DNA of 56,298 bases, filler included, from Squatina squatina (taxonomy: Eukaryota), in NCBI GenBank assembly GCA_031763465.1. It is 4 parts of 4 records of this genome, joined end to end, with 100 filler letters (N's around TTAATTAATTAA, not from the genome) between each part and the next. Parts side by side here need not be neighbours in the genome. Positions count along the whole stretch, not along the records: positions 26,201 to 42,943 come from JARFOE010000192.1; 3 more parts are not named here. One strand, written 5' to 3'. Position numbers and translations under genes: made by a program. Of the stretch, positions 26,157-42,987 are shown piece after piece (within the stretch, counting starts at the first letter, position 1; every line of letters starts with the position of its first letter). The notes beneath the pieces were generated by a model, which ran no database searches, was not told where the DNA came from, and was given only the letters and a program-made list of their open reading frames with translations.

Positions 26157-26780
26157 NNNNNNNNNNNNNNNNNNNNNNNNNNNNNNNNNNNNNNNNNNNN
26201 CTACATTGAAGTTGCTCTGTAAATGCAACTCATTGTTGTTGTTATTATACATAGCCTTGACTATTCTTAGATATTAGAGCCCAATTCAGAATCATCAAGG
26301 ACTGTGAAGACACTCCTTTTACTCATCAAACATCTTTTTGGCATCTAGTAAAAGTTTCAACTGATGTCGACATGGTTAATATTGAATAGGCTCAGACATT
26401 TCTCTGCAGTCTGTCCCTCAAAACCTTTGACTCAGCCAGCCTCAAGAAAGATGTCCAATTTTATAGCCAACATCTACATCAGCATTTTAATATTAAGCAA
26501 TAAAAATGTGTGCCAGCTAACTTCCTAAAGGGTCCTCCTTTTTTATACTGAACAAAAGTTAGGAAGAAATTTTATATTAAAGGAGCTATATGTGGAGGTC
26601 AATGAGGCCAAAATGTAACCAGGTAACATCAACCACCAAGGCTTTCCACTCTGCATTCCAGATAACCCATCTAAGTGCAATATGGTGTTGCCTTTGAACT
26701 ATATGTACTGAAAGTTTCAACATTTTTAGGGCATATACACAGTATATGATTTGATGATTTGAGAATAAGTGCCGACTTAC

Positions 26781-26991
26781 CGAAGCTAAGCCCATTATTC
26801 TGGGAAATGTCAGTGATGAGGATCCATCTGGAGTCTGTCCAAAAGTCGTATAAGGAGTCTGAAACCATGCTTTCTCATTAGCCCACACCACATCGCAAAG
26901 AGGTAATATGGAAGCTCCAAGGCCAATTGCAGGGCCATTCACGGCTACTATGATTGGTTTCTTAAACTGAATAAACGTATTGACAAAACTC
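26781..26991 (-). CDS. CDYL: CDYL exon (211 nt), crotonase-like domain
   Basis: TTTTTAG|G acceptor, TCG|GTAAGT donor; SFVNTFIQFKKPIIVAVNGPAIGLGASILPLCDVVWANEKAWFQTPYTTFGQTPDG...FPRIMGLAS; phase matches the preceding exon. Confidence 0.95.
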
Positions 26992-28504
26992 CTAAAAACA
27001 AAAGAAACAAGCTTCAGTCTGTTGCGCTTTTAATGATTTGCACACATTTGCAATTATAAACCTACAGTTCAAATACCACTGGCACAAATGTAACGGTTAA
27101 CAGCATTTAACATAATATTATACAACACATGTCTCAGATCTGTGTATAATTATAACAAAACATTCAATTGTAGAGATAAACACCTTTAATGCCTTCTTGG
27201 TGACTTGTCTAATGGGACTGATCAATCCTGAGGTTAATCTTTTGTATAATTCTGTAATTCACACAAAGAATCTGGACTTTTACAAATCACAAATTTTCAT
27301 CAAAGAAAACTATTCCAAACAAAGCTATTAANNNNNNNNNNNNNNNNNNNNNNNNNNNNNNNNNNNNNNNNNNNNNNNNNNNNNNNNNNNNNNNNNNNNN
27401 NNNNNNNNNNNNNNNNNNNNNNNNNNNNNNNNNNNNNNNNNNNNNNNNNNNNNNNNNNNNNNNNNNNNNNNNNNNNNNNNNNNNNNNNNNNNNNNNNNNN
27501 NNNNNNNNNNNNNNNNNNNNNNNNNNNNNNNNNNNNNNNNNNNNNNNNNNNNNNNNNNNNNNNNNNNNNNNNNNNNNNNNNNNNNNNNNNNNNNNNNNNN
27601 NNNNNNNNNNNNNNNNNNNNNNNNNNNNNNNNNNNNNNNNNNNNNNNNNNNNNNNNNNNNNNNNNNNNNNNNNNNNNNNNNNNNNNNNNNNNNNNNNNNN
27701 NNNNNNNNNNNNNNNNNNNNNNNNNNNNNNNNNNNNNNNNNNNNNNNNNNNNNNNNNNNNNNNNNNNNNNNNNNNNNNNNNNNNNNNNNNNNNNNNNNNN
27801 NNNNNNNNNNNNNNNNNNNNNNNNNNNNNNNNNNNNNNNNNNNNNNNNNNNNNNNNNNNNNNNNNNNNNNNNNNNNNNNNNNNNNNNNNNNNNNNNNNNN
27901 NNNNNNNNNNNNNNNNNNNNNNNNNNNNNNNNNNNNNNNNNNNNNNNNNNNNNNNNNNNNNNNNNNNNNCGGTGTTTTCATTACAATGTGGAGCTAGACT
28001 GTAAGGGTTCAGCAAACTGGCCCTCAGACTGGACAGTGAGCTTGGCCTGAGGCAGACTGAGACAGGTGGCTGAGAGCTTGAACTATCACCTGCAGACTGT
28101 CCAAGTCTGAGCGGCCTGGAACAGCCAAACTGCCCAGTTTTGCTGTAACGTGTTTGTGTGCGAAGGTTTTCTGCACCTTCCTCTAGCTAAACCCTCATTT
28201 GTGTTGATGAAATATCAATGTTTTTCACTTTGTCAGAATCTTTTTACTATAACTGGTTGATTAAAAATGATCTTTTTCAGTTCCTATTTTTTGTTTCTGA
28301 ATAGAAAAGATTTAAAAAAGAGAAACTTGCATTTCTATAGTGCCTTTCACAACTTCAGGTTCAACCGTGACATTGTCATTAAGCCTGTTGTTCGTTGGTG
28401 AACAGACCTCTATGTAAAGGGGTAAAGGTTCATCAGCTGTGCAGGCAAATCAAGTGATAGAAATTGCCCAAATTGATTTTAGCAGTGACAAAGGTAATTT
28501 ACAG

Positions 28505-28770
28505 CTCGTCTGCACCCATCTTTTATTTCTGTACTTGTCTCATTGCCATCCCCCGTGGCCTCGCACCATCAGCCCTATTGTCATTTAATCTCTCCTGCCT
28601 CCTTCCCTTTTGTTTTTCCCCCTTTCCCTGCCCCTATACTTAAAAACATGTTAAATCTCTAACTTCTTCCAGTTCTCATGAAAGGCCATCGACCTGAAAA
28701 GTTAACTCTGTTTCTCTTTCCACAGATGTTGTTTGACGTGCTGAGCAGTTCCAGAATTTTCTGTTTTTAT
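28505..28770 (+). mobile_element. Penelope-type repeat with degenerate minimal hammerhead motif
   Basis: Pyrimidine-rich body, then AGTT-CTCATGA-AAGGCCATCGACCT-GAAAAGTT-AACT and CTGTTTCTCTTTCCACAGATG...CCAGAATTTTCTGTTTTTAT; reverse-complement relative of 56188-56298. Confidence 0.6.
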
Positions 28771-28786
28771 CCTAGAAGATGCATAC

Positions 28787-28959
28787 CTGATGGACTCAGT
28801 CATTTTAGTACTTTCCCTTTTTCGGTCATCTGTTAATCGGCGAATGAAATAAATAAAATCAAGACCACAACAAAAGACGCTTCCTACAGCACTCAGCAAA
28901 ACCAGTTTACTATCATCAGCTGCTGCAGTGTTCAGGGCACTTTGCATTTCCTTCATAAC
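28787..28959 (-). CDS. CDYL: CDYL exon (173 nt)
   Basis: TTTACAG|GTT acceptor, CAG|GTATGC donor; VMKEMQSALNTAAADDSKLVLLSAVGSVFCCGLDFIYFIRRLTDDRKRESTKMTESIR. Confidence 0.95.
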
Positions 28960-29267
28960 CTGTAAACAAAACAATTAAAAAAAAATAAAAAACCTTAACT
29001 GAATACAGCCATTGTAAAATTTTAATTCCAGAAACACTTGTATAGATTACATTTATTAAAAACTTCCTATTTATGCAGACTTGTAACATGCAATCTCAGA
29101 GCCAGTATCAAGTCAAGACTCATTTTCATCACCAAGGCAATACATTACTCAGCTTCAGATGCAGTATTCCTCAAACACAAGGGTCAGTAAATCAATGCAA
29201 AGAAAAAAATTCAAGGAAAACATTAAGATGTTTCCAAACAGAATTATGTCACAAATCGGCAGGTACA

Positions 29268-29467
29268 GCAGAGTAGAATGTTTCCACTTGTGTGGAAGAG
29301 TATAACTAGAGGCCATCAATATAAGATAGCCACCAAGAAATCCACTAGGGAATTCAGAAGAAACTTCAGTGCCCAAAGAGTGGTGAGAATGTGGAACTTG
29401 CGAACACAGGGAGTGGTTGAAGCAAATAGTATAGATGCATTTAAGGGGAGGCTAGACAAGCATATGA
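29268..29467 (+). mobile_element. CR1 LINE ORF2 C-terminal fragment
   Basis: MFPLV...TRGHQYKI...RRNFSAQRVVRMWN...VVEANSIDAFKGRLDKHM. Confidence 0.88.
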
Positions 29468-29716
29468 NNNNNNNNNNNNNNNNNNNNNNNNNNNNNNNNN
29501 NNNNNNNNNNNNNNNNNNNNNNNNNNNNNNNNNNNNNNNNNNNNNNNNNNNNNNNNNNNNNNNNNNNTTCATTACTTTGTAGCTCTATGGAGTGTTACCT
29601 CAAGCCTTTGAAATAATTGATAAACCACAAAGAGCTGCTGTAACAATTTTTCAATGGCCAATTATTCTGCTTTTATTAAAATGAATATACAATAATGCAA
29701 ACACATTCACACTTAC

Positions 29717-30383
29717 CTTTTCCATTAAATGATAATGCTGAAGCTGTGGCTCCTGTCACTGGCAGTTGCATCTGGGGTGATAATGGTTGTGTCCTTGGCC
29801 TGGTTCCCATTCTGGCTCTCTCTGTTCCAGGGACAAGCAAAGCCCCATACGGCTTTTCAATAGTCAGGTCTGGTGCTACAGAGTCTGGATTCTGTGCCAT
29901 TTGCTCTAATCTATCTGATGAGGTATCCTGAAAACCATCAACAACTATCCTATTCTTTAGAGGGCTTCTGGGAACTAGGATTTTGATGCCAGATTTAGTA
30001 AGGTCCATCGTCTTCCTACTGGAGAAAGTCTGTGAGCTGGCTTTTCGATATTTCTGGTGACTTGACAAGAACTGGCTGGAGTTTTTTGAGTCACAGTCTT
30101 TACCAACTCCTGGTGATCTGGGAGAAGACTTTGACAGAGAACTGTTGGTCGACCTGGAAATCTGTTTTCGAGCATTGTTTAGAGAGTGTTTGTTTGCTCT
30201 GGAAAAAGGTCCATCTTTCTGTTTATCACTGTGCTGCCTGTTAAACTCCAGAATATACTCCTCACAGTTCACCAGATGATGTTCTGGTTCCCATGTGTCA
30301 TCATCACTGTCATAACCTTTCCACCGGACCAAGTACTCTGTTCGCCCCTTTTTATTTTTCCTCTTGGCCACAATTCTCTCTAC
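29717..30383 (-). CDS. CDYL: CDYL chromodomain plus hinge exon (667 nt)
   Basis: TTTAATAG|GTA acceptor, AAAG|GTAAGT donor; VERIVAKRKNKKGRTEYLVRWKGYDSDDDTWEPEHHLVNCEEYI...NNARKQISRS...MDLTKSGIKILVP. ARKQ motif and ECI2 adjacency indicate CDYL rather than CDYL2. Confidence 0.96.
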
Positions 30384-30776
30384 CTATTAAATCAGGAAAC
30401 AAAGGAATCAGTGACACAGAACTTGCTGTGGGTTAGGCGCTAAATAATGAGGGTTAACTCTCCTTTGCTGGTCTTAAAGGAACTATTCTGGTAAATGACC
30501 AGGTCTAGAATTGTGCTCAACCTTTATTTAATATTTCCACAAAATATATTAGGATTATAGTCTGGTGAGGAAAAGTATTATTAGATCTGATGCAGTAACT
30601 TTACATAAAAACATGCATGGGAAATACAGCAGCTTACAGTTGCACAGTAGCTGTAGTACGATTGAGAATATATTGTGCAATAAGTAAAAATACAAAGAAT
30701 TTTAGCAGCAGGAAAAGATCATGAGGCTCGAAAAGCTCATCCCCTTTTTGATTGGTTCATACTTACCCACCTTACA

Positions 30777-31255
30777 TAGGAAAATAGAAATGTACAGACC
30801 CAGCAAAGACCACTCTATTCCACTTGGTCGCCCCCACTCTTCTTACCATACCCTCAGCCCAAAAAGTTAGCTAGTTGTTTCTTGAACATGGTTATATTAT
30901 TTGTGACAACGGCCGTCCCAATAACTTTTCCACCAAATTTAATTTCTTACTGCCTAATTTTCAACTTGCCCCCTGGTATTTGAACCCCGGGCCAAAGTGA
31001 TATATGGTATTTATCCCCTTTGCATGGACCACCTCTGCTATTCGCTTCCATAGTTTTCAAAATGTTAATTAGAGCCCTTGAAATTTCCTCTCTTCTAAAA
31101 AGGACGAAACCCAACATTCTTAATCTTTCCTCATTATCCAGATTATTCTTCATTACTGCTTATAAGGACAATGTCCTCCCAATGATTCGGTGATTGTAAA
31201 CAAAAATAGCATGGCCCTTTTGATTTATACTCTATTTCTCTGCAAATGCAACCCA
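30777..31255 (-). mobile_element. Decayed CR1-like LINE 3' part
   Basis: NLDNEERLRMLGFVLFRRE resembles the CR1 'SYEERLRELGLFSLEKRR' segment; tail ATAGGAAAATAGAAATGTACAG. Confidence 0.55.
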
Positions 31256-31406
31256 GTTAAAACAAAAATAGAGAATGCTGGAAACAATTAGCAGATCAGA
31301 TAGACTTGTTCCAGATTTCCAGTATCAGACTTTTATTTTTGCTTCCAGTAATTTACCTGCCTTTTTCCCAAATTGGTCTTCATAGACTTATCCACAGTAA
31401 CTTCTA

Positions 31407-31503
31407 GATACAAAAAGCAAAATACTGCGGATGCTGGAATCCAAAATAAAAACAGAAAAAGCTGGAAAAACTCAGCCGGTTGGTGGGCAGCATCTGTTGA
31501 GAT
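31407..31503 (-). mobile_element. Penelope-type repeat end
   Basis: ATACAAAAAGCAAAATACTGCGGATGCTGGAATCCAAAATAAAAACAGAAAAAGCTGG, near-identical to 56188-56250. Confidence 0.65.
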
Positions 31504-31935
31504 NNNNNNNNNNNNNNNNNNNNNNNNNNNNNNNNNNNNNNNNNNNNNNNNNNNNNNNNNNNNNNNNNNNNNNNNNNNNNNNNNNNNNNNNNNNNNNNNN
31601 NNNGAGTAACTAAAAATCAATGAAATAAATTTAAATACTGATCTTAGCCTGAATGATGGTCTGTCAGTGTAAACAGGAGTGCAGGGTGGATTGCTTGTGC
31701 AATTTCCAATGTGAAATATTTTGATTAGAAAGGTAATTGCTACTGCCATTCATGGCATACATAAGAGTATAAATTTTGGGTATTGAGCAATGTGGGTCTG
31801 CCAATAGAAATTGCACTTTGCAGTGAACACTAGGGTTAGGAGAGTGTCAATCATCAGATGTCATAAGGCTCAATTGCTGTTGAATTCTTTTTATTAAAAT
31901 GCCTTTTTTATGTTATATTTATATTCATATTCTTT

Positions 31936-32225
31936 TGAAGTGGGTGATGCTGGCTAGGCTGAATTTATTCCCAATCCACCATTTATATAAATGAGTGGCT
32001 TGCTGGGCCATTTTAGAGGATATAGTCATTCGCTTAATGTGAGACTGACCTTAGGGCTGACTAGGTAGGGCTGACAAGTTCTCATCTCTAAAAGACATTA
32101 TTAAACTAGTTAGGCTTTTACAAAGGCAATTTTCATGCTCATTTTTTCCCCCACTGCTTTCATGGTCATTTCTTTCCAGTGCTAGCTCACAAATTGCCTG
32201 TTGAAATGTTCAGTGTTACCAATAA
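31936..32225 (-). mobile_element. Decayed SINE-like repeat (family also at 33964-34270 and 47280-47389)
   Basis: Shared motifs GCTGG..AGGC...ATTTATTGCCCATCC, GAGTGGCTTGCTGGGCCATTT.AGAGG, TTCATGGTCAT. Confidence 0.5.
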
Positions 32226-32417
32226 TAACCTGAAATTCAAGTCTGTCGACCCAATACTAAATAAACATTGATTTGAGGTACTGTTGCTGATGTCGTTTAT
32301 CAGCACTCATGCTCAGAGGGCTGACTACATTGAAACCCTTTTTAAAATTGATGCTGTTCAACTATCCATTCTAATTTTTAAAAACTCAATTTCGGTTTGA
32401 TGTGTTTAATTTTGCAG

Positions 32418-32574
32418 ATTGGTCCGAAGTTTACCAGCAGTTAAACTGCATATAACTGGAGCTGCCATGGTTGCAACAGAAGCTGAATTTAATAAAGCAA
32501 AGGATGAGTTGAAGACTTTGAAGAACGACCCTGGAAATGAAATAAAATTGCAGATATATGCATTGTTTAAACAG
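32418..32574 (+). CDS. ECI2: ECI2 exon (157 nt): end of presequence and start of acyl-CoA-binding domain
   Basis: TTTGCAG|A acceptor, AAACAG|GTAATA donor; MVATEAEFNKAKDELKTLKNDPGNEIKLQIYALFKQ is an ACBP-domain sequence. Confidence 0.92.
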
Positions 32575-32689
32575 GTAATACATTTAAAATTGGAAAATAC
32601 AAGTAATGGTCAGGGGAAGAACCCATTGTTTGAGAAAGCTCACCAATTTCAATTGAAGTTAGATGAATGGCTTTCGCACCAACCATCTG

Positions 32690-33114
32690 AATACACCTTT
32701 TTTATATAATTTCCACCTCCGCCCTTGCCTCAGCTTATCCACTGCTGAAGCCCTCATCCATGCCTTTGTTGCCTCTAGACTTAACTATTCCAATGCACTC
32801 CTGGCTGGCCTCCCACTTTCTACCCTACGTAAACTAGAGGTGATCCAAAACTCTGCTACCTGTGTCCTAACTCGCACTAAGTCCCACTCACCCGTCACCC
32901 CTGTGCTCGCTGACCTACGTTGGTTCCCTGTTAAGCAACACTTCAATTTCAAAATTCTCATCCTTGTTTTCAAATCCCTCAATGTCTTTGCCCCTCCCTA
33001 TCACTGTAATCTCCTCCCCACAATCCCCCCAAGTTGTCTGCGCTCCTCCAATTCTGCCGTCTTGAGCATTCCTGATTATAATCGCTCAACCATTGGTGGC
33101 CGTGCCTTCTGTTG
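32690..33114 (+). mobile_element. L2 LINE ORF2 C-terminal fragment
   Basis: LRPCLS...AEALIHAFVASRLNYSNALLAGLP...LEVIQNSA...TPVLADLRWFPV...FKILILVFKSL. Confidence 0.9.
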
Positions 33115-33241
33115 NNNNNNNNNNNNNNNNNNNNNNNNNNNNNNNNNNNNNNNNNNNNNNNNNNNNNNNNNNNNNNNNNNNNNNNNNNNNNNNNNNNNNN
33201 NNNNNNNNNNNNNNTGATGTGGTTTAATTCCCCTCCAACAG

Positions 33242-33362
33242 GAGATATGTAAGCCATTACATTGATTTTCCAAAGCCACTGATTGCTGTAATTAATGGTC
33301 CTGCTGTTGGGGTTGCTGTCACTATTTTAGGATTATTTGATGTAGTCTACGCCACTGATAAA
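33242..33362 (+). CDS. ECI2: ECI2 exon (121 nt), enoyl-CoA isomerase domain
   Basis: CCAACAG|G acceptor, AAA|GTGAGT donor; [40 protein letters not shown]. Confidence 0.95.
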
Positions 33363-33522
33363 GTGAGTCTTCTCATGTGTTCTCATCTGGTTGGTCATTT
33401 TTATATTTGATAAAATATCTGCTGTTTTGCTGCAGCAAATTGTTTTAGATAATAAATAGCCTTTATGTTGGAGAAGAATGCTAATGTGTTGAGTCTGTGT
33501 TGTTTTTTCCCCCCCAATGCAG

Positions 33523-33612
33523 GCCACATTCCACACACCATTTAGTGCACTTGGTCAAAGTCCAGAAGGCTGCTCATCTTACACCTTCCCGAAGATGATG
33601 GGTACTGCCAAG
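33523..33612 (+). CDS. ECI2: ECI2 exon (90 nt) with catalytic Glu
   Basis: ATGCAG|GCC acceptor, AAG|GTATGG donor; [30 protein letters not shown]. Confidence 0.95.
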
Positions 33613-33963
33613 GTATGGGTAGCAAGTTTCACCCACTGAAATTTCTTAACAAATCATACCGAGCAAACATATTGATAAACTTTGCAGTATTTAGCCTAAT
33701 AGTTAATACGTTTACTGATGCAAAATGATATTTAGGTTTGGAAAAAATAAACCCCCAGAAATGCATACATCTACACACTGCTCATTTAATTAGTGCATTT
33801 TCACAAGGCATTTGATTAATTTTCTATGAAATTGATCTAGGAGGAAGTAGTCAGCATTGAAGTTACATCCAACTTTTTATGAACATTAGCAAGTGGAGGA
33901 AAATGTGCCCCAAAATAATAGCAATTAAAACACAGGTTTGCACAACTTTTATTATTTATTTTC

Positions 33964-34270
33964 AGGGTGCATTTACTGCCTACCCATACTTTCCCTGAGG
34001 CTTACTTGAAGTAATTGTGCTACAACTGTATGCTTTGCTAGGCCACTTCAGAGAGAGCTGCATAGTGTGAGACTGTAGACCAAAGTGGGAAGGGGTGGCA
34101 GGATTCCTTCCCTGAAAAAGATTAGTCAGTCACTTGGGTTCTTTCTCAGTCTGGCAGCTTTCATGGCCATTCTTTTTGATTTACTGAATTCAGTTTCATA
34201 ATTTGCCATGGTGAAATTTGAATCTGTGACCTTTGTGTTGCAAGTCTAGTACCATAACCACTGCACTATT
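33964..34270 (-). mobile_element. Decayed tRNA-derived SINE-like repeat
   Basis: Shares blocks with 31936-32225; plus-strand ATTTGAATC...CATAACCACTGCACTA is a reverse B/A-box-like head. Confidence 0.5.
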
Positions 34271-35205
34271 GTATCATTGTATATGAACACAATCTGAAAG
34301 GAATAGCTCAGAACTTTTGACACGTTCAGTGATTGTAGAGCTCTGAACACTAAACCTTCTGCTTTTTATTTGCAAGCAACTAGTTGGCCTACTGGTCTGA
34401 TTCTCACTTAGGGTTTCCGGTTTTCACACTTGAAGTTAACAACATTTCTGCAGTTTCAGCAAGTGCGCAGAATTGCTTAAGCATATTAACTTGAGACGTA
34501 GAAGTTAACTACNNNNNNNNNNNNNNNNNNNNNNNNNNNNNNNNNNNNNNNNNNNNNNNNNNNNNNNNNNNNNNNNNNNNNNNNNNNNNNNNNNNNNNNN
34601 NNNNNNNNNNNNGTGCAGGCTCGAAGGGCCGAATGGCCTACTCCTGCACCTATTTTTCTATGTTTCTATAACTCTGGAGATTAGGATTGTTTAATAACCA
34701 TTCAGCAATAAATAGATTTCTTTGTGTAAACATATTGATGGAAACCTTTATAGGGATTATTACTTAGCTGTCCAGTAACTACTTTATTTCAAAGATAGCC
34801 ATCCAAGGATTCAAAACACTGTTTAGCTTTACATTCTTTGTCAAATTGAAGTAAATTATGGCTGACTATGCCAATGAGCCAATCTATATGGTGAATAATG
34901 TAATCATTCTGTACCCCTTCTATGTGTTATAGGCAGTATCTGGTGTCATTTTATGCTTTGAATATAAATTGCAACATCCACATTGTTTACTTCAAACTTT
35001 TATATATTTTTGCTGCCTTTACTCATCATTTCGATGTTTTTTTGTTGCAAGATAATATTTTGATCATTGTAATTTAAAAAAAAATAAAAGGTGTAGACCA
35101 ACTTGGATGAAATGATGCTGATTTTAATTGATGTCTGACCTAATAGAACATGACTGACTCATTTTTAAGGATTTAATATTGTTATCAATGTTACTTTCAT
35201 TTCAG

Positions 35206-35361
35206 TCTCTGACCTTTTCAAAGCAGCTAATAAGAGGTGTTGAAAAGGAAAGGCTGCATGCTGTCAATGCCCAAGAATGTGACCAACTGGTGGAGAGATG
35301 GCTATCTGAAGAATGTATGAATGCCATAATGGGCTTTTTTGAAAATAAGTCAAAGTTATGA
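35206..35361 (+). CDS. ECI2: ECI2 terminal exon ending in peroxisomal signal SKL
   Basis: TTTCAG|TCT acceptor; [51 protein letters not shown]. Confidence 0.95.
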
Positions 35362-35701
35362 TTTTGTTTCTCCATTATTCAGTAATTGACACCCAGAAAT
35401 CTAAATGCTAGTTATGATTACATATAACATCATTATGCTATGTTTTGGATCAGATTACAATTTTCATTGTCAATACTACATTGCAATGTAATCATTAAAC
35501 GGTCAGCCAAGCTGTTGTGTGGTTTTCTTGTGCTAATTAGCCATAAATGTATATCTTTGAACATTAGTTTTATGTGTGATTACTATGTTTGAAAATTATG
35601 GATGGGGTTGGGGGCGGGGGAGGGGGAAGAGCTGAAATCAGAAACACTGTCCGAATGTGTGAAAGTAAAACCGATTGTAATGCTAAGTTGCTCTTGTCCG
35701 T

Positions 35702-35939
35702 TTAAAATCTGTAATTTTGCATCATAAATGGATAATACCAATAACAATAAAAAAGTTTTTCTGGAAGTGTGATTGAATGAGTATTAACTGCTTTGCATGC
35801 TGACAGTATATCATTGAACACAACTTGTGCGCTATGACTTCCAGAAAAGATCACTGAATCAATGGGCCCACATCTGCACAGCTCTTGGAGGATGAACCAT
35901 CTGTATAGTGTCTCAGGCATTTCTTTTATTACTGACCAC
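35702..35939 (-). CDS. TEX56: TEX56/C6orf201 (DUF4523, RRM-like) terminal coding exon
   Basis: TTTTCTCTTCAAG|G acceptor; CGPIDSVIFSGSHSAQVVFNDILSACKAV...FYCYW..PFM matches recalled C6orf201 [29 protein letters not shown]...FQCSWQQRFM; convergent with ECI2 as in mammals. Confidence 0.82.
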
Positions 35940-36055
35940 CTTGAAGAGAAAATATNNNNNNNNNNNNNNNNNNNNNNNNNNNNNNNNNNNNNNNNNNNNN
36001 NNNNNNNNNNNNNNNNNNNNNNNNNNNNNNNNNNNNNNNNNNNNNNNNNNNNNNN

Positions 36056-36758
36056 CCACCCTATCGGGCAATGCATTCCAAATCCTACCCACCCATTGCT
36101 TATTTTCTTGCCTTATGTTGCCTCTGGTTCTTTTGGCAATCACCCTAATTCTGCTTTCTGGTTATTGACCCTTCAGCCATTGGAAACAGTTTCTCTTTAT
36201 TGACTGTATCAAAACAGTTCCTAATGAACACCTCTATCAAATCTCCTCTTAGCCTTCTCTGCTCTAAGGAGAACAACCCCAGCTTCTCCAGTCTATCCAA
36301 ATAACTGTAATCCCTCATCTCTGTAACCATTCTAGTAAATCTCTTCTGTACTCTCCAAAGCCTTCACGTCCTTCCTAAAGTGTGGTGCCCAGCATTGGAC
36401 ACAATACTCCAGCTAGGGCTGAACCATGGTTTAGCTTAACTTCTGGCTTTTGTACTCCATGTCTCTCTTTATAAAGCCCACGATCCCATATGCTTCATTA
36501 ACTGCTTTATTAACCTGGCCTGCCACCTTCAAAGATTTATGTACAAACACCCCCAGGTCGCTCTGTTCTTGCACCCCCTTTAAAACTGTACCATTTAGAA
36601 TGTATTGTCTCACCTCCATTCTTCCTACCAAAATGTATTGCCTCACACTTCTCTGCGTCGTACTTTATCTGCCATGTGTCCACCCATTCACCAACCTATC
36701 TATGTCCCCTTATTACTGTCTTCATCAGTGTTTATTACACTTCCAAGTTTTGTATCAT
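36056..36758 (-). mobile_element. CR1 LINE ORF2 3' fragment
   Basis: YILNGTVLKGVQEQSDLGVFVHKSLKV...EYKS and SYLDRLEKLGLFSLEQRRLRGDLIEVF. Confidence 0.92.
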
Positions 36759-36969
36759 AGAATAGAATTATAGAAATCTACAACGCAGAAGGAGGCCATT
36801 TGGCCCATCGTGCCTGTGTCGGCCGAAAAAGAGCTATCCAGCCTAATCTAACAGTCCAGCTCTTGGTCTGTAGCCTTGTAGGTTACGGCACTTCAATTAC
36901 ATATCCAAGTACTTTTTAAATGCGATGAGGTTTCTACCTCTATCACCCTTTCAATTCCCCTCCAATCCT
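36759..36969 (-). mobile_element. Second CR1 3' end, nested in or abutting the previous copy
   Basis: ATAGA-repeat tail, then sequence matching 12577-12725. Confidence 0.75.
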
Positions 36970-37599
36970 NNNNNNNNNNNNNNNNNNNNNNNNNNNNNNN
37001 NNNNNNNNNNNNNNNNNNNNNNNNNNNNNNNNNNNNNNNNNNNNNNNNNNNNNNNNNNNNNNNNNNNNNCTACATGGCAAACCCACCTACCCCGTTAAAT
37101 AGCACCAGAAATCACAAGATGGAGTGTGTCACCGCCCGAAAAACTGGGCGCGGGCACCACTATTATTTAAGGTTCGCTGCGCTAGCCAATTGTATGTGGG
37201 GTGGACATTTTGGGCGCTGCGCCTCTTGATGATGTCATGGATGCCATCCAACACCCGAATCCAAGTTTCCAGCGCTCCTGTGCAATAGCCCATTTGGCGC
37301 TGGCACTGCTCCAATGCAAGTTCTGCATCGGAGTACCTTAGCGCCAGAAACTGGTGTTACACCCCTAGCACCTGTTTAGTGTTTATTCTGCGCCTGCGCT
37401 AACTAACCAATTGGCTCCCCCCCGAACGTTCTAAATGTTCTTCTGAGTGAATGAGACTCCACACTTTTAAAATTTGTTTTTTCAGGGTCAGAGAATCTGT
37501 TCAGCAGTAATTATGACTTAGTGCATCACTAAAAACTCAGTTACTCCTGATTGATCAAGAGTTAACTATGTGCACTGTTGTGCAGGCTCATTTTTAATA

Positions 37600-37932
37600 G
37601 CAGTTCCTCTCACTTTATTTTAAACCATTTTTACACTCCTCTTCTATAGCTCTATTTATTCCCTGGCCTTTTATGTCCTCCCTTAGTTCAGCATGACCTA
37701 TGTTCTTTCCTGTTTCATCTTTATTTAGACTTGTTTCATTTCTTGTAGATCCCTCCCAACATCTTACCAGTTTAAAGCCTTTGCCATCCTCCCTATTTAC
37801 CTCTTCTTCTCGGACACTTGTCCCATTCTGGTTCAGGTGGAGCCCATCCCATCGGTTCAGCTCCTTCCTATCCCACTGGTGCCAACGTCCCATGAAAAGA
37901 ACCCCTCTTTCCCACACCAGTCCTTTAGACAC
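37600..37932 (-). mobile_element. CR1 ORF1 SGNH-esterase fragment
   Basis: GVLFMGRWHQWDRKELNRWDGLHLNQNGT contains the DGLHLN esterase block typical of CR1 ORF1. Confidence 0.75.
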
Positions 37933-39787
37933 ATGTTGGACAGAATTTTCCCAGCCCCGCGAGTGTGGGTTTGGAGACCTGCTGTCAAAATAGCAGTGAT
38001 TGACAGCAGGGCGGAAGTCCGCTCTGAACCCGCCTCCGTGTCAGTTTCTCAAGTGCCGGATCTGCCTGCGGTCGCAGACCTGACATNNNNNNNNNNAAAT
38101 GTTGGGTCTGTCTGCGGATCGCAGAAGCGATACCAAGCGGCGGGCCAGTCAAGTAAGATACTTAAGAGGTAATATGAAGGCAGTTAAAAGGATTTTACCC
38201 GGGCACTTACCATTTTACAAAATTTTTGACGTGTTTGCCATTGCTCCGGTTTCATGCCAGGTGAGTGGAGTCGGGTTCTCAGTGACTCTCCATTGCTTTG
38301 GCTAGTTGACAGCTGCAGAAGTGGTATAAAAGCTAACATTTCACAGCTGTTTACNNNNNNNNNNNNNNNNNNNNNNNNNNNNNNNNNNNNNNNNNNNNNN
38401 NNNNNNNNNNNNNNNNNNNNNNNNNNNNNNNNNNNNNNNNNNNNNNNNNNNNNNGTTAAATTTACAATGTTGCAGCTAGACAGTACAAAATGTCAACAAA
38501 ATGCACACATTACTGTGGTTTCAACACTAAGAAAATGAGCATTCTAGTCCACTGTCAAGATGGCTTACTAAGTTGAAGATATTTTATTGAGTTTGTAGGG
38601 TTTCTTAGTGTTTCAGAGTGACCAGTACCCAAGATTAGTAAAACAGCCAAATTCTTGCATATATTATGTATATATATATATATCTGCAACTTAAAGCTGA
38701 AATATTTCAACAAACAGCAATACAATTATACTCTTAGTATAATCGTATTGAAAAATAAGTGTATGAAACCAGCGTCTTCACTTTCATTCAATACTGAAGA
38801 ACTCTTTGCTGTCAGTAACTGGTGTTGAAGCTAAGATAATGAATCATCATTCGCAGGTGTAGGCATTTTACATTGTGGTCCCTACCTATGAAATAAAACA
38901 CAGGATAAGAAAATAGTATAACATGATTCAAATATGAAACAAGCTTACTTATGAATTACCTATCAATTTAGAACATAGCCTGTTTTTTTAAACTAGGTTC
39001 TGTACAACAAAAATGCTATTACAGTGGAGTGCAATATTTAACTAGGCCAATGGGAAATAGGGGTCAAACATGGATATTGCCTGCTATAATGGCAGTTAGG
39101 TCATTCACATCTAGAATGATAATTGAGATATGCATTATCTGCTATATTAATTTTGCTGCATATTAAAGCTTCACATATAACCTAAATAGACCCTGCAAAA
39201 AGAATATCACTAATGAAAGTCAGTCATAAGAAAACAAAAATCTGAAGATAAACAAGATTTATCACCAGAGACTGTACTGCAGAGTTCAAGCTGGGCTTAT
39301 AGGATTATAGCTTTTTAAAAGCCTTACTACACTTTCACATCAAGGGCAATCAGGTTCAAGGCTTGTGATAAGGTTTAATACTCAGGTGATTCACAGTCTG
39401 ACACCGGGAGAAAGCAGTGTTATGTTCTTCAGATCACTTATGGATAGAATACTTTCAGCTTTCATCGTCAAATCTGGATATGTGAACTTGCTGTGAAAAC
39501 GTCAATTAAGTGAGAGACGGGTCTGATCAAATTCATGTTGGGTTGAAGTCTCTGATCATTTAAGTGGCCTCCACAGAGTGTCCATCAGTTCAGCACAGGG
39601 CCGTTATTAATGGGACAAATACCGCAGTCATCAAGAATGCAGCAGCAACAACTTGTCCTGGTGCAGCTGTCAACATCCTTTGAGAGANNNNNNNNNNNNN
39701 NNNNNNNNNNNNNNNNNNNNNNNNNNNNNNNNNNNNNNNNNNNNNNNNNNNNNNNNNNNNNNNNNNNNNNNNNNNNNNNNNNNNNNN

Positions 39788-40165
39788 CCACTCGCGGTTC
39801 TTGCAATGAGTCAGCTATTTATACCATGAAATAAGATGGCGTAACGCCACGGGAAGCCTGTGTACAGGCAGGTTTTTCTGGCGCTGTCTTCTGGAGGCCA
39901 GCAGAGGTGTTAAGACTAGTGAATTTTCTGTCGAGACGCTGCGGAGGCATTGCGCACTGTGATGATGTGACCGGCAGCTAGCGCCTCCAAGAATAGCACC
40001 TCGCCGGGCCGCGGAGGCATTAATTTTTAACACCTCCAAAAAACGGGTACCGAATTTCGCAGGTGGTGCTAATTGGCCCATTTGTGCCTAAAGTTTTTTT
40101 TAACGCCTCCATAACTCCTTCAGCTGGCGGCAAAGAGGCGTTAAAAAGTACCCAATTTCACCCCC
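39788..40165. mobile_element. CpG-rich non-autonomous DNA-transposon-like element (possible Harbinger MITE)
   Basis: Sharp GC-rich island ending CCCAATTTCACCCCC, with a 13-bp subterminal inverted repeat at 40097-40109/40135-40147. Confidence 0.45.
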
Positions 40166-40751
40166 TCGACGTTTTGTTAACGATTAATGATTTCAGGTGA
40201 TCTATTTGCTAATTTAGAGGCAATTCCACAATCTCAGCATCTACAAACTAGTAATCCTTGCACATACATACTTTTGTGAGTGATGCTGTATCTTTATTTT
40301 CTTAAAAGATAACAGTTGCAGCAAGAAATGCACTTTTCATCTGGTATGAAATGCTTATCTAGGCATGCCGTCAGAAATGACCTTGTGGAGAAGGTGAAGG
40401 AGAAGGTGTCTCATTCAAAGCAGGCCCATGGAATAGGCGACGTGGCCTGTTGCCTCCCGGCATAGCAACATAACGTGCTTTCCTTTCTCTCTCAGCACCA
40501 TCGAAGGGAAGTAAGAAAACAGTACAAAACATTAGTCATTTTACAGTACCGGGGTAACTGGATCAGACTTCCAAACAGCTTTGTGAATTGTGGTGACCTT
40601 TAACTTATTCTGAGACACTCATTTCCAATAAGTAACATCACCTTTTAAAAGGTACTTTCACAGTAAGTTAAAACATTAACTAAACTGATGTTGAAAAGAG
40701 ACACTAGGAAACTGATCAACTACTCCTGTGCATAAATCATTTTTACCAGTT

Positions 40752-40757
40752 TTTATT
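40752..40757 (-). terminator. Candidate PRPF4B polyadenylation signal AATAAA
   Basis: TTTATT on plus at the distal end of the AU-rich UTR-like region; another at 41815-41820. Confidence 0.5.
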
Positions 40758-41911
40758 TTTTTTGAAATAGTAAGTGAAAGGCTTACAGCAACTAAAGGCA
40801 ATTTACGTTGAGTGCATTGATTTGTGACTTGATAATCTTACTTTTTTTACTTTGTACAAAACGTTGGATAAAAATGTCACATTTACATAGAAAATGACGC
40901 TCGTTAAACATTCCATACCAAGACAATTGGGATAACAAAATAAAATTTAAAAAACAGATCAGATCAGCAAGTCACTACTGTAGTTTTATGGTTGTACAGA
41001 GACTTGACTGCACATAGGACCACTGTGAAACAGCTATAATGTCTGTTCAAAATGAATGCTTTATTCACCAATGTATTTATGATGCATACCAAAATCCTCC
41101 AGTATTCTGCAAGGGTAACTTTAGATGCAGGAAGAGTGTGCTGCTGTCTGACAAAATGCCCCAACTTACCTTTATATATAAGCAAAGGCATTGTGCAATT
41201 ATTTTAACTCCTTCACTGGCCAGTTGCAAGTCTGCAGGCCTTAGTGCATCGCTAAGTTCTGATCAGCTAGTCTTTGAATGTTACCTTTTCTTTGTTGGAT
41301 ATTTCAACAAGTCGGTATCAAAAAATTTATGCCCATTTTATGCATGGATTGCCCCACAGGTGCAACGGTTTACTGAATCCCAAAAAAAACCTACCGCGCA
41401 CACAAGAATTGGAGGGTTTAATATCCTTTTTCAGTCTGAAATCAAATGGTAGTTTATGCCAGTGAAGGGGCTAAGTACAGAACTACAATTCAAAGTCATC
41501 ACAACTCATCTTAAACAAAAGAAAAACTATAGACCAAATTAAATGTACAAAAGAAAAAAGGTAAAGAAGCAATTACCGCTTTAAAAAGCAGCTGCTTTGC
41601 TCAAGAGTGGAAGGTTATGTATGCCTGTATTGAGAGACAACATGATCACAAATAATGAAACCAATGCACATAACGTAGCAAAGGAAATTCTTACTGTAAA
41701 ACAATCTTAATTTTAATTTTTAAAAATTCAGAAAGTGTCATATTTTAGACATCTACAAAGAAATATAAAATCCCAATCTTTTTCCATTTTAATGACTAAA
41801 TGAAACTGTTTCTGTTTATTAATGGACTATAGGTACAGATTTACTAAGAAACAGAATTTTATGGCATTGACAAATTTCTACCACAATTCTATAACAACTT
41901 CAAATGGTAAA

Positions 41912-42148
41912 CAGTACACTGAAGGTGCTATACTCATCAAGCTTCCCCACACTGAAGTCTATAAATTGGCATAGTTTCAGCAGTACATTAGCAAATTCAC
42001 AAGCTAGTTAATATCTTATCACATTCGCCAGCATGCAAGGCATTCTGCCATGATGCCAATACTTCTCATTCATGAGCTGTGCCTATCTGTGACAATGAAT
42101 GCTAGTACACCAGTAATGTTGATGGTTTAGCTTACCTTCAGTGTACTG
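41912..42148 (-). promoter_or_regulatory. Long-range RNA stem structure masking a 5' splice site in the PRPF4B 3' UTR
   Basis: Perfect 15-bp inverted repeat 41912-41926/42134-42148, extended by 4+2+6 bp, plus nested inner helices; the 5' arm contains GAAG|GTAAGC. Confidence 0.7.
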
Positions 42149-42674
42149 AAAGTGGTACACAACCTGCTTTAAATGATGTGACCATCCCTGCGAGCAGGCA
42201 CAGGTAGGGACAGACCCCTTCGGCACTGAGTACACCAAGGGCATGCTGGCCTGCGCACACACANNNNNNNNNNNNNNNNNNNNNNNNNNNNNNNNNNNNN
42301 NNNNNNNNNNNNNNNNNNNNNNNNNNNNNNNNNNNNNNNNNNNNNNNNNNNNNNNNNNNNNNNNNNNNNGGGGAATGCAACAGCCATTAGAGGGAAACAA
42401 AAACCAAAAATAACTTTTTTTAAAATAAAGTTTGTGTGCAGTCTTAGCAGTTAAAACAATTCAACAAAACTACAGTGAAAGTATGAAGAAAACATTTGGA
42501 AAAAACAAATCAATATATTTACAGTGACTCATATTCCTACTAGAAGTAACATTTTTCTTTTAACTTAACTTCATGCATATTTCACGGTAAACATCGTGTT
42601 TCACATATACTAAAATACTTTTCTCTGACTTTTCCAGTCTTTGTTTAATTGCTCAAACCCGTTAAATCCTTCGA

Positions 42675-42878
<204 letters not shown>

Positions 42879-42987
42879 CTAAACCAAAAAAAAAAAATCG
42901 GCCTTTGTCAGGATGCATATTGTGCTTCAATATTTTAGATGTGNNNNNNNNNNNNNNNNNNNNNNNNNNNNNNNNNNNNNNNNNNNN

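What the first reader, a model, noticed from the sequence alone, without database searches (positions are those of the whole stretch)
41912..42148. Nested ~240-nt RNA structure in the PRPF4B 3' UTR that buries a 5' splice site
Seen: on the mRNA (minus) strand CAGUACACUGAAGGU (42148-42134) pairs perfectly with ACCUUCAGUGUACUG (41926-41912). After a 2-nt AA bulge the helix continues GCUA/UAGC, AC/GU and CAUCAA/UUGAUG, about 27 bp in all. Inside it, a contiguous 21-nt strand GUAC-UAGCA-UUCAU-UGUCACA (42108-42088) pairs in nested order with 41983-86, 41989-93, 41996-42000 and 42017-23, using two G-U pairs. The outer 5' arm is a near-consensus donor GAAG|GUAAGC (GU at 42135-42134) with only the +3/+4 AA bulged out. 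The region is not a recognisable transposon. Known: PRP4 kinase is a spliceosomal kinase, and splicing-factor genes often autoregulate through unproductive splicing and NMD. Inference: this is a structure-gated UTR splice site controlling PRPF4B mRNA level. I do not know whether it has been described.
Basis: partly seen in the sequence, partly recalled or inferred. Interest (0 to 1): 0.8.

Follow-up and report, generated by a model that had tools for sequence, protein, structure and literature searches.

The report
Helix masks PRPF4B UTR splice donor
In a shark's gene for the splicing kinase PRP4K, the 3' UTR carries two complementary arms predicted to fold over the splice donor of an intron that matches a known decay-triggering UTR intron of mammals, so the helix likely sets how much of the message is spliced and destroyed.

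Summary
Outer helix confirmed, inner helix not supported, and the splicing-to-decay part is already known in mammals. The record is a shark PRPF4B last exon and 3' UTR. The 15-bp perfect repeat extends to 27 bp (-38 kcal/mol). Once the 3' arm exists, opening the AAG|GUAAGC donor costs 12-17 kcal/mol instead of 5-7. The donor starts a 511-nt GT-AG intron between UTR exons of about 127 and 48 nt. Human PRPF4B has 133/507/46 nt over the same 686-nt span and is a published 3'-UTR-intron NMD target. Mouse primers for a retained Prpf4b intron map inside the element; one is the 3' arm (18 of 20) and still pairs. Not shown: shark junction reads, the mammalian 5' arm, two-sided covariation, any effect of the helix. 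One other vertebrate-like copy lacks the donor arm. Ten paper searches found no description of the helix. Verdict: a probably undescribed structural gate on a known AS-NMD intron.

The parts
42675..42878 (-). Coding part of the last PRPF4B exon (C-terminal 67 aa plus TAA)
   Evidence: matches human PRP4 kinase residues 941-1007, E 2.7e-34
42136..42262 (-). 3' UTR exon, about 127 nt; its acceptor is hidden in the N gap 42264-42369; human counterpart 133 nt
   Evidence: human exon starts GTGTG, found at 42262 or 42260; human exon hg19 chr6:4061249-4061381; boundary inferred
42119..42148 (-). 5' arm of the helix: 13 exon bases, the donor GU, bulged AA (+3/+4), then intron bases to +17
42130..42138 (-). 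5' splice site AAG|GUAAGC, GU at 42135-42134
   Evidence: 8 of 9 consensus positions, the only such site in 42230-42060; use in shark not shown
41625..42135 (-). Predicted 511-nt GT-AG 3' UTR intron (human 507 nt)
   Evidence: mouse intron-retention amplicon maps inside it
42031..42050 (-). Interior segment shared with mouse (17 of 20), not part of the outer helix
   Evidence: mouse primer Prpf4b-intron-F
41912..41940 (-). 3' arm of the helix, wholly intronic; its perfect part lies +210 to +224 from the donor
   Evidence: 41930-41911 matches the mouse primer Prpf4b-intron-R at 18 of 20
41815..41820 (-). AAUAAA inside the intron, about 90 nt after the helix; use unknown
   Evidence: read; not tested
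41625..41655 (-). Predicted 3' splice site: branch-point-like UGUGAUC (A at 41646), pyrimidine tract, AG at 41626-41625
   Evidence: sequence; position fits the human exon start hg19 4061889
41577..41624 (-). 48-nt 3' UTR exon (human 46 nt)
   Evidence: human exon hg19 4061889-4061934; lengths
41567..41576 (-). Next UTR donor, intron side GTAATTGCTT
   Evidence: 10 of 10 identical to the human site at hg38 chr6:4061701

Best explanation
A 27-bp long-range helix is predicted to bury the 5' splice site of a 511-nt intron in the PRPF4B 3' UTR, which likely keeps the intron in by default, so that only the fraction of transcripts spliced there would be sent to nonsense-mediated decay. Shown in the sequence: the two arms, the near-consensus donor, an acceptor, and exon/intron lengths that match the human UTR. 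From papers: human PRPF4B makes NMD isoforms through 3' UTR introns, and the matching mouse segment is scored as a retained intron that responds to U6 loss. Inferred: the 3' arm is made about 220 nt after the donor and about 270-290 nt before the branch point and AG. U1 therefore has a few seconds (recalled Pol II speed 1-4 kb/min) to bind before the helix closes; after that the helix outcompetes it. A junction here lies over 500 nt past the stop codon, so an exon junction complex would trigger NMD. High spliceosome activity would lower PRP4K mRNA and low activity would spare it, a homeostatic loop.
For: Helix -38.0 kcal/mol; donor opening cost 4.6-6.8 in 7 of 7 transcripts ending before the arm is complete, 16.4-16.9 in 3 of 3 ending after it, and 12.4 with the whole intron, against -9.5 for a U1 duplex. 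Human 133/507/46 nt versus shark 127/511/48 nt, both 686. Human PRPF4B named as a 3'-UTR-intron NMD example; human and mouse transcripts in a 3' UTR intron table. Both mouse primers map in order inside the intron, 17 and 18 of 20, where 300 shuffles of each reach at most 16. The mouse arm pairs with the shark 5' arm at -29.0 versus -29.7, and its change opposite the donor U gives U-G. Conserved complementary regions are reported to be enriched over inactive splice sites.
Against: No junction or expression evidence for shark was obtained. No call showed the mammalian 5' arm; the human donor is placed by coordinates only. The exon ends may come from annotation, and the junction between those two exons is not a row of its own. 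No two-sided compensatory change can be counted: of 2 mouse differences, one keeps a pair and one breaks the last pair with the shark arm. An interior segment outside the helix is about as conserved (17 of 20), so conservation alone does not prove pairing. The mouse amplicon could also lie in a longer intron that skips this donor, and the qPCR values were not readable. The one other vertebrate-like copy (L002) has no such donor or repeat, and the 3' UTR intron table gave 0 zebrafish rows among 5 hits.
Confidence: 0.6

Rival explanations
1. The helix works in the finished, intron-retaining mRNA as a double-stranded platform (Staufen, ADAR or another dsRNA binder) for export, stability or editing; covering the donor is secondary.
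For: A 27-bp helix with 15 perfect pairs persists in any message that keeps the intron. Staufen1 binds 3' UTR duplexes (abstract in the listing). Conserved complementary regions are enriched in A-to-I sites.
Against: The helix covers the whole donor from -13 to +8 apart from the AA bulge, and AG|GURAG sites are rare here (5 on the minus strand of the window). Loss of the 3' arm on splicing fits a splicing role.
Confidence: 0.17
2. The helix switches 3' end formation: masking the donor removes U1 protection and frees the AAUAAA at 41820-41815, giving a short mRNA that ends before the acceptor and escapes NMD.
For: An AAUAAA lies in the intron about 90 nt after the helix. PRPF4B is listed among genes with alternative polyadenylation, site not given. 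U1 suppression of nearby poly(A) sites is recalled knowledge.
Against: AAUAAA is common in an AT-rich UTR; conservation and use of this one were not tested; mammalian UTRs with further exons downstream exist.
Confidence: 0.08
3. The intron is regulated by linear protein-binding motifs; the complementarity is incidental or a relic, for example of an old miniature transposon whose ends begin CAGT.
For: Interior sequence outside the helix is conserved too; no covariation is shown; L002 keeps a 12-nt piece of the 3' arm without the 5' arm.
Against: Chance rate about 1% per window; a perfect 15-bp match would decay without selection, yet the mouse arm still pairs; the flanks are TTT/TTT, not TA or an 8-bp duplication.
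Confidence: 0.12

Closest known systems
Human PRPF4B 3' UTR intron AS-NMD (Kovalak et al., bioRxiv 10.1101/847004; PMC8091538)
   Same: Same gene, same UTR exon layout (686-nt span, one donor identical over 10 intron bases), NMD isoforms from 3' UTR introns.
   Different: The passages and table rows I saw mention no RNA structure or mechanism; the figure itself was not seen.
SRSF2/SC35 3' UTR unproductive splicing (PMC2831310)
   Same: Splicing-factor gene, retained 3' UTR intron plus UTR cassette exon, conserved structured control region, NMD outcome.
   Different: There a local stem-loop in the downstream exon holds binding sites for SC35, hnRNP H and TDP-43; here a helix spanning 237 nt covers the donor itself.
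BRD2/BRD3 structures controlling unproductive splicing (PMC10789245) and PCCRs (PMC8052449)
   Same: Conserved long-range complementarity tied to an NMD splicing event; PCCRs tend to obstruct inactive splice sites.
   Different: BRD2's pair controls inclusion of a poison exon in the coding region (abstract start only). The PCCR catalogue leaves out exons except 10 nt at intron ends, so a UTR helix like this may be missed.
Donor-masking hairpins: SMN2 exon 7 TSL2, MAPT exon 10 stem (recalled, no call)
   Same: Base pairing competes with U1 for a 5' splice site.
   Different: Those are short local hairpins that form at once and change the protein; here the partner arrives about 220 nt later and the outcome is mRNA amount.

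Membership tests
AS-NMD 3' UTR intron of a splicing-factor gene (SRSF2 type) | Host gene encodes a splicing factor | tested here: met
   PRP4 kinase C-terminus
AS-NMD 3' UTR intron of a splicing-factor gene (SRSF2 type) | GT-AG intron more than 50-55 nt past the stop codon | tested here: met
   donor 540 nt past the stop, counting the 106-N gap; acceptor at 41625
AS-NMD 3' UTR intron of a splicing-factor gene (SRSF2 type) | The intron is spliced in some transcripts | tested here: inconclusive
   human exon ends fit; mouse segment scored as a retained intron; nothing shown for shark
AS-NMD 3' UTR intron of a splicing-factor gene (SRSF2 type) | Spliced form is an NMD target | not testable with these tools
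   stated for human PRPF4B in a figure legend; which of the UTR introns is not stated there
AS-NMD 3' UTR intron of a splicing-factor gene (SRSF2 type) | Conserved across vertebrates | tested here: inconclusive
   met for shark versus human spacing and mouse primers; not met in L002
AS-NMD 3' UTR intron of a splicing-factor gene (SRSF2 type) | The gene's own product promotes the unproductive event | not testable with these tools
   no data found
Splice-site-masking conserved complementary pair (PCCR type) | Long, stable complementarity overlapping a splice site | tested here: met
   27 bp, -38.0 kcal/mol, covers the donor
Splice-site-masking conserved complementary pair (PCCR type) | Both arms conserved | tested here: inconclusive
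   3' arm 18 of 20 in mouse; mammalian 5' arm not seen in any call
Splice-site-masking conserved complementary pair (PCCR type) | Compensatory substitutions | tested here: inconclusive
   one one-sided U-A to U-G change; no alignment of both arms was available
Splice-site-masking conserved complementary pair (PCCR type) | Disruption and rescue change splicing | not testable with these tools
   needs a minigene or antisense test
Rfam RNA family | Match to a covariance model | tested here: not met
   0 of 4227 families on the element; the only hit up to E 5 is elsewhere, E 3.1
Miniature inverted-repeat transposon (Tc1/mariner or hAT type) | TA or 8-bp target-site duplication | tested here: not met
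   flanks are TTT and TTT; the 8-nt flanks differ
Miniature inverted-repeat transposon (Tc1/mariner or hAT type) | Many genomic copies | not testable with these tools
   no genome held; no second copy of the arm in the window apart from its partner

The most novel reading that the evidence does not exclude
The helix turns this intron into a sensor of the step PRP4K itself serves. When the donor is handed from U1 to U6 during tri-snRNP integration, the waiting 3' arm recaptures it unless the hand-over is fast. Active PRP4K thus splices its own mRNA into decay without binding RNA: a kinase feedback loop kept from sharks to mammals. The mouse intron's response to U6 loss and its rescue by U6 fits.
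Probability: 0.25. Interest if true: 0.78.

Novelty: new variant of a known kind. Interest (0 to 1): 0.5.

Why it matters
PRP4K is essential and dosage-sensitive: its reduction is linked to aggressive tumours (abstract start of PMC9298446). Its UTR splicing to NMD is known, but I found no account of what sets the rate. A short intronic arm gives one cheap handle: an antisense oligo or a few point changes would test the gate and might tune PRP4K level. It also extends this UTR layout from mammals to sharks.

Tried and rejected
Sequencing runs: no RNA holder listed (23 of 24 rows hold part of the stretch, 0 on record as RNA). Laying 4 runs on 41660-42112 gave 0 contigs, which the tool says can be false, so it is no evidence either way. 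Junction use and variation among close relatives stay open. No genome is held. Rfam: nothing on the element. Metagenome loci: 25 PRP4K relatives; 23 are 70-75% identical, L001 has only 60 nt after the stop, L002 is usable. None of the 25 has AG|GURAG in up to 1500 nt after the stop; blastn of the shark UTR gave 1 unrelated 19-nt hit; the global alignment with L002 is noise. A small hairpin at 42052-42032 that fits the mouse primer is not the preferred shark fold (-2.7 versus -4.6). The retained-intron row for PRPF4B in PMC6203201 is a different intron. IRBIS, the RIC-seq paper and the PCCR paper do not name PRPF4B in their main text; PMC9298446 has no UTR or NMD passage. Pervouchine 2012 (RNA 18:1) is not held and the Staufen hiCLIP supplement is unreadable; either could hold this helix. 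Earlier scan notes: none.

Full report
Setting. The window is four pieces joined by N44-TTAATTAATTAA-N44 spacers at 12770, 26145 and 42988. The finding lies in the piece 26201-42943. That piece also holds a chromodomain exon and an acyl-CoA-binding exon. The chromodomain exon is 94-97% identical to shark CDYL, 89-94% to rays, 91-92% to chimaera and at most 67% to the bony vertebrates among the 120 of 305 hits listed, so the animal is a shark. On the minus strand, 42878-42675 encodes the last 67 residues of PRP4 kinase, matching human residues 941-1007. A 106-N gap (42264-42369) lies between the stop codon and the element.

Observation. The 15-bp perfect repeat is real and extends to 27 bp, with pair probabilities near 1 and -38.0 kcal/mol. 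The fold z-score is -3.06, and 2 of 200 shuffled windows hold a perfect repeat this long within 300 nt. The donor AAG|GUAAGC matches 8 of 9 consensus positions, against 3-5 for the 13 other GTs nearby. The inner helix fails: probabilities at most 0.03, +5.0 kcal/mol when forced, interior z = +0.7, and 6 of 200 shuffles match it under a rule made for it.

What the donor is. The legend of Supplemental Figure 1D of Kovalak et al. names PRPF4B as a gene that uses 3' UTR introns to make NMD isoforms (passages seen, figure not). Their junction table (PMC8091538, supplement 1, 5 of 5 PRPF4B rows seen) gives a human UTR acceptor at hg38 4061014, with the exon starting GTGTG, and a donor at 4061701. 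I read both as annotated sites because those rows are classed as new only at their other end. The donor's ten intron bases are identical at 41576-41567. The span from GTGTG (42262) to that GT is 686 nt in both species, or 684 if the second GTGTG register is used. An rMATS table (PMC8980049, supplement 6, hg19, offset 234; 8 event rows seen) splits the human span into a 133-nt exon, a 507-nt gap and a 46-nt exon. The shark gives 127, 511 and 48 with the donor at 42135 and an acceptor at 41625 that has a branch-point-like motif and a pyrimidine tract. The table shows reads splicing into the first exon and out of the second, but the junction between them is not its own row and the exon ends may come from annotation. 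More UTR exons follow in human, and human donors lie 28 and 70 nt past the stop codon. A 3' UTR intron table lists 3 human and 2 mouse PRPF4B rows and none for zebrafish (PMC7310861 supplement 3).

Mouse. PMC13219678 (methods passage and section 11 part 1 read) measured a Prpf4b intron-retention event after Tut1 loss, which lowers U6, and reports that U6 mitigates the defect; the values were not readable. Its two intron primers map in order at 42050-42031 (17 of 20) and 41930-41911 (18 of 20); 300 shuffles of each reach at most 16. The second is the 3' arm. It pairs with the shark 5' arm at -29.0 versus -29.7 kcal/mol: one change turns U-A into U-G at the donor's +2 base, the other breaks the end pair. 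No call showed the mammalian 5' arm, so two-sided covariation is untested.

Against wide conservation. Of 25 metagenome loci only L002 is both close (90%) and long enough. I take it for a bony fish, possibly a paralogue, by impression only. It keeps two collinear 12-nt matches, one just upstream of the 5' arm and one in the 3' arm (two or more such matches arise in 6 of 1000 shuffles), but it has no donor and no inverted repeat. The gate was either lost in that copy or is not universal.

Mechanism. Opening donor positions -3..+6 costs 4.6-6.8 kcal/mol while the transcript ends before the arm is complete, 16.4-16.9 after, and 12.4 with the whole intron; a U1 duplex (recalled 11-mer) gives -9.5. 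The arm appears about 220 nt after the donor and before the branch point, so the race is decided before the intron can be spliced. I infer that retention is the default and gives the productive mRNA, and that transcripts on which the spliceosome wins gain a junction over 500 nt past the stop and are degraded. That PRP4K is needed for stable tri-snRNP association is from a title in a reference list; the U1-to-U6 hand-over is recalled knowledge. Together with the U6 sensitivity in mouse they give the bolder reading in the section on the most novel reading. Rivals are a dsRNA platform in the mature mRNA, a poly(A) switch and incidental complementarity.

Novelty. The NMD splicing is known. For the helix, ten searches found no description; the search for arm and donor motifs hit only the mouse primer paper. 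The library lacks most subscription papers. Pervouchine 2012 is not held, and the hiCLIP supplement and two Kovalak files could not be read. Genome-wide structure catalogues may well list the pair. Other papers seen: PMC8052449, PMC10573301, PMC4174434, PMC9298446, PMC6203201, PMC8150589 and PMC2831310 as passages, supplement rows of PMC6203201, and PMC10789245 and PMC10164587 as listings with abstract starts.

Verdict. Real feature, partly known. Observation partly confirmed; best explanation 0.6; new variant of a known kind; interest 0.5.

Noticed in passing
window 12770, 26145, 42988: Three N44-TTAATTAATTAA-N44 spacers split the window into four pieces; sequence above 43043 is not upstream PRPF4B and its neighbourhood should not be read across the spacers.
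   Followed up: yes
window 26586-32709: CDYL exons (minus strand) and an acyl-CoA-binding exon (plus strand, likely ECI2) sit beside PRPF4B in a heavily gapped piece; the order matches human 6p25 as I recall it.
   Followed up: partly
L002 2020-2342: This copy keeps 12-nt remnants beside the 5' arm and inside the 3' arm but not the donor arm: a possible natural loss of the gate.
   Followed up: partly
L002 2326-2350 with 2441-2470: The leftover 3' arm can pair with a downstream segment (-19.8 kcal/mol), perhaps a new partner, perhaps chance.
   Followed up: no
window 42032-42052 (-): The mouse-conserved interior segment could form a small hairpin whose G-U in shark is G-C in mouse; it is not the preferred shark fold.
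   Followed up: partly
window 41164-41172 (-): A second strong AAG|GUAAG donor further down the UTR; human has more UTR exons downstream, but I did not match it to one.
   Followed up: no
window 42604-42658 (-): Only weak donors (4-6 of 9) lie where human has UTR donors 28 and 70 nt past the stop; the first UTR intron's shark donor is unassigned.
   Followed up: partly
window 13130-13144 and 13325-13339: Another perfect 15-bp inverted repeat, 180 nt apart, overlapping an ORF piece that looks like a LINE remnant, in a different piece of the window.
   Followed up: no
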